Translations under genes and position numbers: made by a program
Assembly: GCA_000165345.1 (NCBI GenBank)
Contig: CM000434.1
Coordinates: forward strand, 480,001 to 544,000
Length of the DNA: 64,000 nucleotides
Direction: 5' to 3'
Shown here: positions 13,667 through 29,429 of the stretch, piece after piece
How positions within the stretch are numbered: the stretch's first letter is position 1
Layout of the letters: each line of letters opens with the position of its first letter
The notes under the pieces: generated by a model
Databases searched by the model: none
Told to the model about the DNA's origin: nothing
Seen by the model: only the letters and a program-made list of their open reading frames with translations

Positions 13667-13979
13667 TTTGAAACTAACATTTATAAATAACTTAAAAGAA
13701 AAAAATTAAATCCTCCCGCCAAATCAAATTTCTGTCTAATTGATTTTTTTTCTTAGATCAACTCAAAAACGATCAAAATAAGAATATGCTAAAAATCTAA
13801 GAACGTTAGATACAATACCATCTTTTAGTTGTATTTTAATAAAATTTTAACATTTTTTAATAGAATAGATTTTAGAAATTATTAATCCTCTTAAGTATGA
13901 AATAAGAAACACATTGAATATATGAAACCCTTTTCTATGTAAGAAAGCGACTTGGCAAACGAAACTCGGAGTTGTAGAG

Positions 13980-14053
13980 GTGGGATGGCCGAGCGGTCTA
14001 AGGCGCTAGTTCGAGGTGCTAGTTTTCGCGGGTTCGAATCCCGTTCCCATCAC
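13980..14053 (+). tRNA. 74-nt tRNA gene, class I length, identity uncertain (anticodon loop UCGAGGU, apparent anticodon GAG)
   Basis: GGTGGGA/TCCCATC 7-bp acceptor stem. A box TGGCCGAGCGG and B box GGTTCGAATCC. T arm GCGGG-TTCGAAT-CCCGT. D arm GCCGAGCGGTCTAAGGC resembles Leu-type tRNAs. Anticodon stem CTAGT/GCTAG. 5-nt variable loop TTTTC. No encoded CCA. Discriminator A, followed by a T5 run. Confidence 0.7.
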
Positions 14054-27422: not shown

Positions 27423-28067
27423 TTAAAGGCAGCTAAGTAGGTATATTGCAAAACTATAAAAAATGAGTGCAAGCGGTAATTGATATATTATAAAGTCGTA
27501 TAATGCATTAAATAAATATATAAACCACTCTTTAAGATTTTTTTTTACCGATTTTATTGAAATATTTGTGCATGAAAATTCTGGATTACAAAACTTGCAT
27601 TGCTTATTACATGCGGACTTCATTCTAATCAAAGAACGCCTAAATTTACTTTTCTGCCAAGTATTATTTAGTTTTGTATTACATCGTTTATTTGATAATG
27701 ATTTATCTACGTAATTTGTGAACATTACCATATTTTTTGGAACAGTATTCAAAATATCCTCTCCGAAATACTTCTTAGGAGTAGTTAGAAGTTTATTTGA
27801 TTGTGTAAATGAGTATTCTTTATTATATCTCTTTTTAACTGGGGTTCTGTTCAAACAATCATTAACTAATAATCGATCATCGGATCCTAAATAATCCAAA
27901 TGTTCTTCATAGTTCTCACTTTTGGAATTTTGTATTTTAATAAGTAGATCTGTTTCCTCAAACAACGAGAGATTTTTTTCATTTGTTCCTTTAGAGAAGG
28001 TATTTATTAACTTTAAATCATCTCTTTCTTTTTCTTTTGGTGTTTCAGGAAGAAATAAAGTGCTCAT
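27423..28067 (-). CDS. Hypothetical protein about 214 aa with a C-terminal hydrophobic anchor (possibly tail-anchored)
   Basis: MSTLFLPETPKEKE... ending ...IIYQLPLALIFYSFAIYLLSCL. ORF-track start 28085 is TTG; first ATG is 28067. Stop lies only 13 nt from the convergent giant ORF stop. Confidence 0.35.
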   Translation of the reverse strand: MSTLFLPETPKEKERDDLKLINTFSKGTNEKNLSLFEETDLLIKIQNSKSENYEEHLDYLGSDDRLLVNDCLNRTPVKKRYNKEYSFTQSNKLLTTPKKYFGEDILNTVPKNMVMFTNYVDKSLSNKRCNTKLNNTWQKSKFRRSLIRMKSACNKQCKFCNPEFSCTNISIKSVKKNLKEWFIYLFNALYDFIIYQLPLALIFYSFAIYLLSCL

Positions 28068-28353
28068 TATGTAAAATATAAACAAAATTTACAAAAATGT
28101 GGGTCAAGTTACGGCGGGAATATCGAAACTAAATTTTTAACTCTGGAGATTGAGTATAAAAAAATTTGTTATCCCATTTTCTTCCCTTTACTGGTAAAAC
28201 AGTAATTCCTAAAAAATATTTGGCCTAAAACAATGTATCATAAACATACCTGGTCCATCACTAGATGAAAACCAATAATTATCTCTTTTTGCAATTCTCG
28301 AGCTTTTTCTGATCTCAGAATCGGTTAATAATAATTCAGCCTAATAAATTAGT

Positions 28354-29429
28354 TTAATTTCTCTGAGTCCTTCCAAAACTTACCTTTGAATATAGGGATA
28401 TTAGTGCTGTTTCTACTTTAAGAATTCTATCTCCCATATTCACGACTTTGAATCCCATTGTAATTAAGTCTGTCAATTCTTCTTTTGTCCAACCTCCTTC
28501 AGGTCCAATAGCAAGGATAATTGGTCCAGTGTGGCTTTGTAATCCTATTTCAGTAATCTTGCTGTTGCCTAAGACATCAGCAACAATTCCAATCATGCTT
28601 TCTTTGCAAAAAAAATAATTCCTAATATTGTTAATGTTTAACAAAAAGGAAGTAAAGTTTCTTACCTTAAATGCTGTAGAAAAAATGTCCAAGAAGCATA
28701 AACATAAACATCTGGGCACAATGTTTTTGATGCCTGTTCAAGCCCAAGCTGTACAATTTCATCAATAGACTCTTTTTTTAACTTGGATGAATTTAAATAC
28801 GACTTTTCGGATTTATCAGTACAAACAAAAATTATTCTTCCAACTCCAATTGTAACCGCATTTTGAAGTACTTTCTCAAACACTTTTGGTCTAGGAAGTG
28901 CAATTAATAAGTCGATTAAGGGGTAATCATGTTTATATTCCTCTTTATGAATTTCTGTATCTAACTTAATTGTAACTGCATATTGAAAATTATTTAAATT
29001 ATTGATTTCCGAAATAGATCTTCTGGATCTATTATTTACTTTATTACCTATTTCTTCAATGCTAGATAAGTTAATTATTGATTCTGATTTGGTTATTCCA
29101 TCTTTATTAGTTTCTTTTCTCATTATTTTGGTTACTGTTGCAGTTCCTTTTCCAGAGTTTTTAACTCCAACATTAACTTTTGAGCCAATATTAATTTCCA
29201 GAACTGAGATACAATGATTGGACTGTCTGGAGGATAGCTCAACAGTTAGGTCTTCATTAATATCCTTTTTATCAATAATGATTAAGTTCATTAGAATTGA
29301 TGGAAAAATGACCATTATGGCGGTATGATCTGCATTAAGACTGGATCTTCTCGCATGGTGCATAAGAAAGATACGATCACATAATAAAACTAAGCTAACA
29401 AAAGATTGGGTTTCGTATTGAAAGATCAT
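28354..29429 (-). CDS. RsmE-family RNA methyltransferase (bacterial 16S rRNA m3U1498 methyltransferase-like), 2 exons: 29429..28666 and 28621..28354, 44-nt intron
   Basis: C-terminal motif LAIGPEGGWTKEELTDLITMGFKVVNMGDRILKVETA matches the RsmE signature (E. coli-like ..IGPEGG.S..E......F..V.LG.R.LRTETA). Middle region ALPRPKVFEKVLQNAVTIGVGRIIF and EQASKTLCPDV match RsmE blocks. The two ORF-track fragments (28662-29429 and 28354-28719) are joined by a GTAAG...TATTAG intron with phase preserved (..HL-R-NYFFCKESMIG..). Confidence 0.75.

What the first reader, a model, noticed from the sequence alone, without database searches (positions are those of the whole stretch)
28354..29429. Bacterial-type RsmE (16S rRNA m3U methyltransferase) family gene carrying a spliceosomal intron in a parasite without organellar ribosomes
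The protein has the complete RsmE signature including ..AIGPEGGWTKEEL...MGDRILKVETA. RsmE methylates U1498 of bacterial 16S rRNA, and eukaryotic homologs are normally organelle-targeted. Cryptosporidium has no apicoplast and a genome-less mitosome, so there is no obvious bacterial-type rRNA substrate. The gene has a 44-nt GTAAG..AG intron, so it is a genuine nuclear gene, not contamination. It could be an ancient horizontal transfer or endosymbiont relic repurposed for cytosolic rRNA or another RNA. A further GTAAGT at 28378 hints at a possible extra 3' exon.
Basis: partly seen in the sequence, partly recalled or inferred. Interest (0 to 1): 0.6.

Follow-up and report, generated by a model that had tools for sequence, protein, structure and literature searches.

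The report
Cytosolic RsmE-type RNA methyltransferase of Apicomplexa
This is a real, three-intron Cryptosporidium parvum gene for a bacterial-type RsmE RNA methyltransferase. It is already annotated, it belongs to a family shared by all apicomplexans and chromerids, and that family appears to work in the cytosol rather than in organelles, so its RNA target is unknown.

Summary
The RsmE call is correct. Pfam PF04452 scores 116 bits (cut-off 23.9) and TIGR00046 94.6 (cut-off 41). A model of the 94%-identical C. meleagridis ortholog matches only RsmE crystal structures best.

The 44-nt intron is real, and the GTAAGT at 28383-28378 starts a second intron. The true CDS is 29291..28129 on the minus strand: 4 exons, 3 introns, 344 aa. 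The window is C. parvum, and the gene is already annotated there as RsmE.

The gene is neither Cryptosporidium-specific nor a recent transfer. Orthologs occur in Porospora, coccidia, Plasmodium, Babesia, Chromera and Vitrella. 24 of 28 gene models start at the domain's first residue, with no presequence. Most carry a eukaryote-specific C-terminal tail.

The Toxoplasma ortholog TGME49_209240 has no signal peptide. It fractionates with cytosolic complexes, not with the apicoplast or mitochondrion.

The gene is under strong purifying selection (dN/dS 0.13 overall, 0.04 in the domains).

So the "no organellar ribosome" paradox dissolves: this lineage most likely methylates a nuclear-encoded RNA. 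Candidates are the 18S decoding-site uridine or the unassigned, provisional m3U reported in apicomplexan tRNA. Neither is proven.

The parts
28666..29291 (-). Exon 1 (coding part). It runs from start codon ATG 29291-29289 (MNLIIID...) through residue 208 plus 2 nt. It encodes the PUA-like N-terminal domain, a Cryptosporidium-specific low-complexity insert (aa 56-105, 29126-28977) and the first half of the SPOUT domain (PRP 28895-28887, LEQ 28742-28734, clade-specific ASW 28697-28689).
   Evidence: All orthologs from other Cryptosporidium species and other apicomplexans start at MNL(I/L). dN/dS is 0.04 in the PUA core and 0.32 in the insert.
28622..28665 (-). Intron 1, 44 nt, GTAAG...TTAG, phase 2.
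   Evidence: Its removal restores the frame and gives one continuous Pfam match across the junction. The position is conserved in C. meleagridis and C. serpentis. Divergence from C. meleagridis is 15.9%, against 5-7.7% in the four exons.
28384..28621 (-). Exon 2 (aa 209-288). It encodes the second half of the SPOUT domain with the SAM-binding knot loops GPEGG (28506-28492) and G-D-R-I-L-K-V-E-T-A (RILKVETA 28428-28405).
   Evidence: The motif residues are conserved against 177 bacterial relatives. The E. coli R223 equivalent is K277.
28341..28383 (-). Intron 2, 43 nt, GTAAGT...TTAG, phase 0.
   Evidence: Splicing it gives AELLLTDSEIR..., which aligns with all orthologs. The position is conserved in C. 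meleagridis and C. serpentis. Divergence is 14.0%.
28250..28340 (-). Exon 3 (aa 289-318 plus 1 nt). It is the start of the eukaryote-specific C-terminal tail and includes the LLLTDSEIR motif (28334-28308).
28209..28249 (-). Intron 3, 41 nt, GTATGT...TTAG, phase 1.
   Evidence: A 2-nt indel relative to C. meleagridis lies inside it. An equivalent unannotated intron can be read in C. serpentis.
28129..28208 (-). Exon 4 (aa 319-344 plus stop TAG 28131-28129). It carries the conserved tail motif VLPVKGRK (28200-28177).
   Evidence: An (L/I/F)-P-x-(K/R) motif recurs near the C-terminus of most orthologs. The 4-exon product is 100% identical to the last 344 aa of the current C. parvum protein QOY41093.1/WRK32812.1.
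29292..29429 (-). Upstream in-frame ORF extension (46 codons from ATG 29429). It is most likely 5' UTR.
   Evidence: A 1-nt indel just upstream of ATG 29291 puts C. meleagridis and C. hominis in a different frame, so their annotated N-termini differ. C. serpentis has in-frame stops 7-8 codons upstream. Divergence is 10.9%, against 5-7.7% in the four exons.

Best explanation
The locus encodes an active SAM-dependent RNA methyltransferase of the RsmE family. It has an N-terminal PUA-like RNA-binding domain and a C-terminal SPOUT trefoil-knot catalytic domain.

It is the Cryptosporidium ortholog of a gene present throughout Apicomplexa and in the chromerids. That gene descends from one bacterial RsmE subfamily (NCBIfam NF008700 type) and was inherited vertically since at least the common ancestor of apicomplexans and chromerids.

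This eukaryotic lineage has no N-terminal targeting sequence. It has gained a disordered C-terminal tail with two short conserved motifs. It works outside the organelles, in the cytosol and possibly the nucleus.

By analogy with RsmE, the protein would act as a dimer. SAM would sit in the knot loops (GPEGG and G-x-R-I-L-K-x-E-T), the PUA domain would hold the RNA, and a methyl group would go to N3 of one uridine of a nuclear-encoded RNA.

Because the substrate is not organellar rRNA, the gene survived the loss of the apicoplast and of mitochondrial DNA in Cryptosporidium.

Shown here:
- family and fold;
- gene structure;
- purifying selection;
- clade membership;
- absence of a presequence.
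Taken from published data: the non-organellar fractionation of the Toxoplasma ortholog.
Inferred: catalytic activity, N3-uridine chemistry and the substrate.

My ranking of substrates, given a non-organellar enzyme:
- the 18S rRNA uridine equivalent to E. coli U1498 in helix 44, about 35-40%;
- the discriminator U73 of cytosolic tRNAs, about 30%;
- some other RNA, the remainder.

The confidence of 0.72 refers to the general statement (an active, non-organellar RsmE-type RNA methyltransferase), not to one substrate.
For: Family and fold:
- PF04452 116.3 bits, TIGR00046 94.6 bits; the best equivalog is NF008700.
- The AlphaFold model of the 94%-identical C. meleagridis ortholog has pLDDT 84. Its 28 best PDB matches are all RsmE-family structures, with TM-score 0.57-0.81 normalised to the target.

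Catalytic and SAM-loop residues are conserved: R134, E162/K163, Q186, G248-P-E-G-G252, G272, R274, L276, E279, T280 (residue roles from PMC5699498, and PMC1829167).

Selection: dN/dS between C. parvum and C. meleagridis is 0.13 overall and 0.04 in both the PUA core and the SPOUT domain.

Clade:
- An exhaustive profile search ranks apicomplexan and chromerid proteins above all bacterial ones.
- These include five not used to build the profile: Besnoitia, Cystoisospora, Eimeria, Babesia and Vitrella.
- The NJ tree recovers the 25 sequences as one group, with bootstrap 58% (82% without long branches).
- Clade-specific residues are C157, K170 and A199-S200-W201.

No presequence:
- 24 of 28 models start exactly at MN(L/I/V)..., and the other four are truncated or fused models.
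- This first strand is part of the folded PUA domain.
- The first 30 residues carry 5 acidic and 3 basic residues.

Toxoplasma ortholog TGME49_209240:
- It starts MNLILLKRRQIRR and is 475 aa long.
- SignalP gives OTHER, and it has 0 transmembrane domains.
- TAGM-MCMC assigns it to the '19S proteasome' class with probability 1.
- The best TAGM-MAP class is cytosol, but it is flagged as an outlier.
- It is assigned to neither the apicoplast nor the mitochondrion.

Substrate leads:
- The U1498 position carries m3U in bacteria and in the archaeon P. abyssi (PMC7005279).
- An AlkB-sensitive signature at U73 of P. falciparum tRNA-Thr, -Lys and -Gln is inferred to be m3U, with no enzyme named. m3U was also measured in P. 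falciparum and T. gondii tRNA fractions.
Against: - No experiment on this protein exists in any apicomplexan. No paper in the library links RsmE to Apicomplexa.
- The hyperLOPIT assignment rests on 2-4 peptides per experiment. TAGM-MAP left the protein unassigned as an outlier.
- The residue equivalent to E. coli R223, whose alanine mutant is inactive (PMC5699498), is Lys in Cryptosporidium. Lys also occurs in 12 of 24 clade members and 19 of 177 bacterial relatives. The effect of this change on activity is unknown.
- Against the 18S target: the 2.7 A cryo-EM plus nanopore map of Babesia divergens cytosolic ribosomes lists only m7G, two m6,2A, m1A and m5C as base methylations. No m3U is listed. 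Yeast U1761 is unmodified. The Toxoplasma protein is in neither the nucleolus nor the 40S class.
- Against the tRNA target: no RsmE-family enzyme is known to act on tRNA. The chemical identity of the U73 mark is unproven. m3U in tRNA fractions could come from rRNA fragments.
- Bootstrap support for the clade is only moderate. I did not include plant, cyanobacterial or alphaproteobacterial RsmE in the tree.
Confidence: 0.72

Rival explanations
1. tRNA writer. The apicomplexan RsmE-type enzyme is the missing methyltransferase for the m3U reported in cytosolic tRNA of Plasmodium and Toxoplasma. Specifically, it would modify the discriminator base U73 of tRNA-Thr, -Lys and -Gln(UUG), with the PUA domain docking on the acceptor/CCA end. 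This rivals only the substrate step of the best explanation.
For: - An AlkB-sensitive misincorporation signature at U73 of nuclear-encoded P. falciparum tRNAs is inferred to be m3U. No enzyme is proposed. Earlier mass spectrometry detected m3U in purified P. falciparum tRNA (bioRxiv 10.1101/2025.02.24.639833).
- m3U was quantified in T. gondii tRNA fractions (PMC10269570).
- The T. gondii ortholog is non-organellar, and its CRISPR score of 0.01 marks it as dispensable. This fits a low-stoichiometry, stress-responsive mark.
- No m3U is reported in Babesia cytosolic rRNA.
- In two bacterial genomes the NF008700-type gene lies beside or near tRNA U34 modification genes: the UPF0176/rhodanese trhO type in Litoribrevibacter and mnmE in Pontiella. 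This evidence is weak.
Against: - Every characterised RsmE acts on 16S rRNA U1498 in assembled 30S subunits.
- The U73 mark is not chemically identified and comes from a preprint.
- m3U in tRNA preparations may derive from rRNA fragments.
- The third bacterial context examined has no tRNA gene nearby; there the gene follows tatABC.
Confidence: 0.22
2. Organellar relic. The protein is, or was, an apicoplast or mitochondrial 16S-type rRNA methyltransferase. In Cryptosporidium it persists in the mitosome or cytosol without its original substrate, either decaying or moonlighting.
For: - The family's only proven activity is on bacterial-type SSU rRNA (PMC1829167; PMC5699498).
- Databases name the protein 16S rRNA (uracil(1498)-N(3))-methyltransferase.
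- COG1385 members in plants exist and are presumed plastidial; that presumption is from my own knowledge.
Against: - The gene is not decaying: dN/dS is 0.04 in the domains, and it is conserved in at least 8 Cryptosporidium species.
- No presequence is found in any lineage, including those that have both organelles.
- The T. gondii ortholog is assigned to neither the apicoplast nor the mitochondrion.
- The gene is retained in Porospora as well.
- The nearest bacterial relatives named so far are not cyanobacteria or alphaproteobacteria. They are Acidobacteriota, PVC-group bacteria, Desulfobacterota and gammaproteobacteria.
Confidence: 0.05
3. Catalytically silent factor. The protein keeps the RsmE fold but acts as an RNA chaperone or ribosome or RNP assembly factor without transferring a methyl group.
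For: - The E. coli R223 equivalent is Lys in Cryptosporidium. It is Thr or Ser in two clade members, P0141 and P0142.
- The T. gondii protein co-fractionates with a large soluble complex class.
Against: - The SAM-binding loops and the remaining catalytic residues are essentially invariant across the clade.
- Purifying selection is as strong on the SPOUT domain as on the PUA core.
- Lys at that position also occurs in about 11% of the bacterial relatives.
Confidence: 0.08
4. Recent horizontal transfer into Cryptosporidium, or bacterial contamination of the assembly.
For: - In a single-sequence search, bacterial proteins follow directly after Cryptosporidium and Porospora.
Against: - There are three spliceosomal introns at positions conserved across the genus.
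- Neighbouring genes are syntenic in C. meleagridis and C. serpentis.
- The window has 31% GC, like the host genome.
- Orthologs occur across Apicomplexa and chromerids.
Confidence: 0.01

Closest known systems
Bacterial RsmE (YggJ; COG1385, PF04452, TIGR00046), the 16S rRNA m3U1498 methyltransferase
   Same: - It has the same two-domain architecture: an N-terminal PUA-like domain and a SPOUT knot domain.
- It has the same SAM-loop motifs (GPEGG, GxR(I/V)L(R/K)xET) and the same dimer-interface residues (R134, E162/K163, Q186).
- The best structural matches are all RsmE crystal structures.
   Different: - It is encoded by an intron-bearing nuclear gene of an organism with no bacterial-type ribosome.
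- It scores below every equivalog cut-off.
- It has a 50-residue insert in the PUA domain (Cryptosporidium only) and a 55-residue C-terminal tail.
- It has Lys in place of the catalytic Arg223 of E. coli.
- Its substrate cannot be organellar 16S rRNA.
NCBIfam NF008700 (PRK11713.5-4) subfamily of bacterial RsmE-like proteins. These start MNLIL... and are found in PVC-group bacteria, Acidobacteriota, Desulfobacterota, Nitrospirota and some gammaproteobacteria.
   Same: - It is the nearest bacterial relative of the whole apicomplexan and chromerid clade (174-184 bits, against under 100 bits for most other equivalogs).
- It shares the MNLIL N-terminus.
- It shares a C-terminal helix (..LLAQ..LLR..) that continues into the eukaryotic LLL(T/Q)D..(L/I)R motif.
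   Different: - The eukaryotic proteins fall below the 252-bit cut-off.
- They carry the ASW motif where the bacterial proteins mostly have basic residues followed by F.
- They carry the long tail.
- The substrate of this bacterial subfamily has not, to my knowledge, been tested separately from canonical RsmE.
Plant members of COG1385 (presumed chloroplast RsmE)
   Same: They are RsmE-family proteins encoded in a eukaryotic nucleus (PMC1829167).
   Different: - The plant proteins are expected to carry transit peptides and to act on plastid 16S rRNA (my own knowledge).
- The apicomplexan clade has no presequence, and its Toxoplasma member is non-organellar.
- I did not place plant sequences in the tree.
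SPOUT1/Ptch (COG2106 family), the eukaryotic m3U writer on 28S rRNA
   Same: - It is a cytosolic or nuclear SPOUT enzyme that makes m3U on eukaryotic rRNA (PMC11641110).
- COG2106 was proposed as the archaeo-eukaryotic sister family of COG1385 (PMC1829167).
- It shows how a eukaryotic m3U writer can work.
   Different: - It is a different family with a different domain insertion.
- The Cryptosporidium protein hits only PF04452, not that family.
Yeast Bmt5/Bmt6 (25S rRNA m3U2634/m3U2843)
   Same: They produce the same chemical product on cytosolic rRNA (PMC3950682).
   Different: They are unrelated to the SPOUT family (from my own knowledge they are Rossmann-fold enzymes). The similarity is functional only.

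Membership tests
RsmE family (PF04452 / TIGR00046 / COG1385) | The SPOUT-type RNA methyltransferase domain scores above the curated family thresholds. | tested here: met
   PF04452 scores 116.3 bits against 23.9. TIGR00046 scores 94.6 against 41.
RsmE family (PF04452 / TIGR00046 / COG1385) | An N-terminal PUA-like domain is fused to the SPOUT domain. | tested here: met
   The PF20260 sequence hit is sub-threshold (19.4 against 23.9). However, the AlphaFold model aligns over 295-305 columns, covering both domains, to RsmE crystal structures with target-normalised TM-score up to 0.81.
RsmE family (PF04452 / TIGR00046 / COG1385) | Conserved SAM-binding knot loops and catalytic or dimer-interface residues: GPEGG; GxRxLRxET; the Gln of LEQ; the Arg of the first SPOUT motif. 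| tested here: met
   All are present. The one conservative change is at the E. coli R223 equivalent, which is K277. Lys is also seen in 19 of 177 bacterial relatives (residue roles).
RsmE equivalog (16S rRNA (uracil1498-N3)-methyltransferase, NF008690-NF008711) | The whole-protein score is above the curated equivalog cut-off. | tested here: not met
   The best is NF008700 at 173.7 bits against a cut-off of 252. All 23 equivalog models are below their cut-offs. The same holds for Porospora, Chromera and Babesia.
RsmE equivalog (16S rRNA (uracil1498-N3)-methyltransferase) | A bacterial-type small-subunit rRNA is available as substrate in the organism. | not testable with these tools
   I did not test this on sequence. 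By established knowledge the feature is not met: the C. parvum and C. hominis mitosome lacks DNA (abstracts of PMC12691609 and PMC5146892), and the genus has no apicoplast.
RsmE equivalog (16S rRNA (uracil1498-N3)-methyltransferase) | It has N3-uridine methyl transfer activity on U1498 of 30S subunits. | not testable with these tools
   This needs biochemistry.
Organelle-targeted eukaryotic RsmE (plant or plastid type) | It has an N-terminal signal, transit or mitochondrial presequence. | tested here: not met
   - The conserved start is MNL..., at the first strand of the fold, in 24 of 28 models.
- The frame upstream is not conserved between Cryptosporidium species, and C. serpentis has in-frame stops there.
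- The T. gondii ortholog is SignalP 'OTHER'.
Organelle-targeted eukaryotic RsmE (plant or plastid type) | It localises to an organelle. | tested here: not met
   This rests on published data for the ortholog only. TGME49_209240 is assigned by hyperLOPIT to a cytosolic complex class, not to the apicoplast or mitochondrion. There are no data for Cryptosporidium itself.
Other SPOUT families (TrmD, SpoU/TrmH, RlmH, Nep1, SPOUT1/COG2106) | It matches those family profiles. | tested here: not met
   No Pfam hit to any other SPOUT family at E<=1. Structural matches to SpoU-type enzymes are far weaker (E about 1e-5, against 1e-13 for RsmE).

The most novel reading that the evidence does not exclude
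An RsmE-type enzyme acquired from bacteria before apicomplexans and chromerids diverged now works in the cytosol. It would be the missing writer of the m3U reported in Plasmodium and Toxoplasma tRNA (discriminator U73). That would make it the first tRNA m3U methyltransferase and the first RsmE-family enzyme with a non-rRNA substrate. It would also be parasite-specific, being absent from the animal hosts.
Probability: 0.22. Interest if true: 0.75.

Novelty: new variant of a known kind. Interest (0 to 1): 0.45.

Why it matters
The gene itself is ordinary and already annotated. What is not in the literature I could search is the following.
- The apicomplexan RsmE homologs form one conserved lineage without a presequence.
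- That lineage fractionates with the cytosol in Toxoplasma and survives in Cryptosporidium, which has no organellar ribosomes.
- The database name "16S rRNA (uracil1498-N3)-methyltransferase" is therefore almost certainly wrong as a functional statement for these parasites.

The finding points to an unassigned RNA methylation in the cytosolic translation apparatus of Apicomplexa. It gives a concrete candidate enzyme for the unassigned m3U signals reported in Plasmodium and Toxoplasma tRNA.

The question is directly testable, because the Toxoplasma ortholog appears dispensable in culture. Animals are not known to have an RsmE-family protein (my own knowledge), so the enzyme would be parasite-specific. 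Its dispensability in tachyzoites argues against high value as a drug target.

The work also corrects the gene model at both ends.

Tried and rejected
I used an alignment of database orthologs instead.
- The scan of genome contigs with back-translated patterns returned only one Treponema locus, because the patterns chosen were clade-specific. It was of no use for naming bacterial relatives.
- Literature searches for RsmE with Cryptosporidium, apicoplast, Plasmodium, Toxoplasma or mitoribosome found nothing relevant.
- A first NJ bootstrap with Kimura distances gave only 29% support for the clade. Scoredist distances gave 58%, or 82% without long branches. No maximum-likelihood program was available, so the phylogeny remains moderate evidence. 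The apparent sister group, which includes Acidobacteriota MAGs, has 1% support and should not be read as the donor.
- I considered the 46-codon upstream extension as a possible signal anchor. It is the source of the 'transmembrane domain-containing protein' annotation. I rejected it on frame non-conservation and on stops in C. serpentis.
- I looked at three bacterial gene neighbourhoods for hints on the substrate of the NF008700 subfamily. They are inconsistent: trhO-like, near mnmE, and after tatABC. I could not test whether those genomes also hold a canonical rsmE.
- I did not identify the P. falciparum gene ID, so no Plasmodium localisation or essentiality data were retrieved.
Full report
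**Observation.** The region 28354-29429 holds, on the minus strand, two ORFs in different frames. A 44-nt GTAAG...AG segment at 28665-28622 joins them.
- The joined 343-aa product matches Pfam PF04452 (RNA methyltransferase, RsmE type) at E=1.3e-33, 116.3 bits against a cut-off of 23.9. The match is one stretch that crosses the junction.
- It matches TIGR00046 (RsmE family) at 94.6 bits against a cut-off of 41.
- By sequence it matches ten or so solved RsmE structures.

**Identity of the window and prior annotation.** The product is 89% identical to a C. meleagridis protein named RsmE.
- The cluster of that protein holds C. parvum, C. hominis, C. tyzzeri and C. meleagridis records. Their names range from 'conserved hypothetical protein' to 'Ribosomal RNA small subunit methyltransferase E'.
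- My revised model is 100% identical to the last 344 residues of the current C. parvum protein QOY41093.1/WRK32812.1.
- The window is therefore C. parvum, and the RsmE annotation is already public.

**Gene model.**
- In the window this sequence is obtained by splicing two further introns. Intron 3 is 28249-28209 (GTATGT..AG).
- The CDS is then 29291..28129: exons of 626, 238, 91 and 80 nt, 344 aa, stop TAG 28131-28129.
- Against C. meleagridis, introns 1 and 2 differ at 14-16% of sites. The four exons differ at 5-7.7%. Intron 3 holds a 2-nt indel.
- Introns 1 and 2 sit at the same codon positions in the distant C. serpentis. An unannotated intron 3 can be read there too, giving a tail ...KPG-LLILPTRSKK that restores the conserved motif.

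**Start codon.** ATG 29429 opens a 46-codon in-frame extension, which some annotations use.
- A 1-nt indel just upstream of ATG 29291 puts C. meleagridis and C. hominis in another frame. Their annotated N-termini are unrelated to that of C. parvum.
- C. serpentis has stops 7-8 codons upstream.
- This stretch diverges at 10.9%.
- Models for C. canis, C. xiaoi, C. felis, C. serpentis, Porospora, coccidia, Plasmodium and Babesia start at MNL(I/L).
- The start is therefore ATG 29291, and there is no N-terminal extension.

**Is the protein functional?** dN/dS between C. parvum and C. meleagridis varies by region.

| Region | dN/dS |
|---|---|
| Whole CDS | 0.13 |
| PUA core | 0.04 |
| SPOUT domain | 0.04 |
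| Cryptosporidium-specific insert | 0.32 |

- An AlphaFold model of the C. meleagridis ortholog has mean pLDDT 84. Both domains are above 90; the insert and the tail are low.
- Its 28 best PDB matches are all RsmE-family structures.
- The residues that published structures assign to SAM binding, the dimer interface and catalysis are conserved.
- The one change is Lys277 at the position of E. coli Arg223, whose alanine mutant is inactive. Lys is also found there in half of the clade and in 11% of the bacterial relatives.
- An active enzyme is the most economical reading, but activity is inferred.

**Relatives.** A profile search with names, and an exhaustive profile search of 1.84 billion representatives, place the following above every bacterial protein:
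- Porospora, Chromera, Vitrella, Hammondia, Neospora, Besnoitia, Cystoisospora, Eimeria, Babesia and Plasmodium;
- two EukProt transcriptome ORFs (GHVS and GHVT prefixes);
- several unnamed metagenomic proteins.

A further search seeded with the chromerid-like members found more Babesia species. It found no named dinoflagellate, perkinsid, ciliate, plant or fungus.

- An NJ tree of 202 sequences recovers 25 apicomplexan and chromerid sequences as one group. Bootstrap support is 58%, or 82% without haemosporidians, piroplasms and a fragment. A cruder distance gave 29%.
- The group shares derived residues: C157, K170 and A199-S200-W201. Each is present in 72-92% of members and in at most 10% of bacterial relatives.
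- It also shares a C-terminal tail with two motifs. One is LLL(T/Q/N)D..(L/I)R, directly after the SPOUT domain. The other is (L/I/F)-P-x-(K/R), near the end.
- The nearest bacterial group is the NF008700 subfamily, whose members also start MNLIL.
- The donor lineage is unresolved.
- The gene is thus an old, vertically inherited apicomplexan gene. It is not a Cryptosporidium acquisition.

**Where does the protein work?** Of 28 gene models, 24 start at the first residue of the fold. The other four are truncated or fused.
- This holds for parasites that do possess an apicoplast and mitochondrial DNA.
- The Toxoplasma ortholog is TGME49_209240. I identified it by its sequence in the hyperLOPIT supplement: MNLILLKRRQIRR..., 475 aa, the same length as the Hammondia protein.
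- It has no signal peptide and no transmembrane domain. Its CRISPR fitness score is 0.01.
- TAGM-MCMC places it in the '19S proteasome' class with probability 1. TAGM-MAP gives cytosol as the best class but flags it as an outlier.
- Among 26 classes that include apicoplast, mitochondrion-soluble and mitochondrion-membranes, it is not organellar.
- The data are thin, at 2-4 peptides per experiment. They agree with the sequence evidence.
- They also agree with retention of the gene in Cryptosporidium, whose mitosome has no DNA.

**What does the protein act on?** This step is inference.
- *Candidate 1: the 18S uridine equivalent to E. coli U1498.* It is the only proven substrate type of the family. 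The helix 44 sequence is universal. The archaeon P. abyssi carries m3U there. Against it, the 2.7 A cryo-EM plus nanopore study of Babesia divergens cytosolic ribosomes lists five base methylations and no m3U. Yeast has an unmodified U at this site. The Toxoplasma protein is in neither the nucleolus nor the 40S class.
- *Candidate 2: cytosolic tRNA.* A 2025 preprint reports an AlkB-sensitive signature at the discriminator U73 of P. falciparum tRNA-Thr, -Lys and -Gln(UUG). It infers m3U, recalls earlier mass-spectrometric detection of m3U in P. falciparum tRNA, and names no enzyme. m3U was also measured in T. gondii tRNA fractions. Against it, no RsmE-family enzyme is known to modify tRNA, and the mark is not chemically proven.
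- I rank candidate 1 slightly ahead on evolutionary parsimony, because a transferred RsmE would find a nearly identical site on the 40S subunit. The margin is small.

**Comparison with what is known.** By every family-level test this is an RsmE-family protein. It fails the equivalog-level test: 173.7 bits against 252 for the best model. It also fails the biological precondition of a bacterial-type rRNA.
- It should therefore be filed as 'RsmE family RNA methyltransferase', not as '16S rRNA (uracil1498-N3)-methyltransferase'.
- A 2007 survey described COG1385 as almost exclusively bacterial, with a few plant members.
- I found no paper discussing the apicomplexan clade.

**Verdict.**
- The gene is a normal member of a conserved, apparently cytosolic, apicomplexan and chromerid branch of the RsmE family.
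- It is already annotated. Its gene model is corrected here.
- Its RNA target is unknown and experimentally accessible.
- Interest is moderate.

Noticed in passing
window 27423-28085 (minus strand; likely ATG at 28067-28065): The next gene downstream begins only about 62 nt after the RsmE stop. It encodes a roughly 214-aa protein with a hydrophobic C-terminus (MSTLFLPETPKEK...). In the public C. canis (P0002, 452 aa) and C. felis (P0006, 494 aa) records it is fused to the RsmE gene. The C. felis model also lacks part of the SPOUT domain. These look like annotation errors.
   Followed up: partly
window 13979-14053 (+): ARAGORN calls a tRNA-Leu(GAG) gene. It is the only tRNA in the window. It is not one of the U73 tRNAs discussed, so it does not bear on the tRNA hypothesis.
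   Followed up: no
L001:4068-4247 (C. serpentis, GCA_051169045.1): The annotated C-terminus of the C. serpentis ortholog (...NKPGNLKWFPHCYLFPLLINSFFRTFNIAHSQ) reads through an unannotated intron (GTAAT...TTCAG). Splicing it gives ...NKPG-LLILPTRSKK*, which restores the conserved LPx(K/R) tail motif.
   Followed up: partly
window 29292-29429 (minus strand) and public records QOY41093.1 / KAL5368085.1 / WKS78321.1: Several public records name this protein 'transmembrane domain-containing protein'. The hydrophobic stretch lies in the 46-codon upstream extension, which is not conserved in frame between species. The name is probably an artefact of the start-codon choice.
   Followed up: yes
L004:4961-6714, L005:6001-9199, L006:4494-6708 (bacterial loci): The bacterial NF008700-type RsmE-like genes sit in varied contexts. 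One is directly after a UPF0176/rhodanese (trhO-type, tRNA U34 hydroxylase) gene in Litoribrevibacter. One is two genes from mnmE in Pontiella. One overlaps the end of tatC in Thiopseudomonas. None resembles the gshB-linked context I recall for E. coli rsmE. It is an open question whether this subfamily is a paralog with its own substrate.
   Followed up: partly
L001:1-2727 and L002:1-2934; in the window upstream of about 29500 on the + strand: The divergently oriented upstream neighbour is a large ion-channel gene (Ion_trans_2 / BK_channel_a Pfam hits). It is conserved in position in C. meleagridis and C. serpentis, which shows synteny of the locus across the genus.
   Followed up: no
window 29126-28977 (aa 56-105 of the protein): A 50-residue Asn/Ser/Lys-rich insert lies inside the PUA-like domain. 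It is found in Cryptosporidium species only and is longer in C. serpentis. It has low model confidence and relaxed constraint (dN/dS 0.32).
   Followed up: partly
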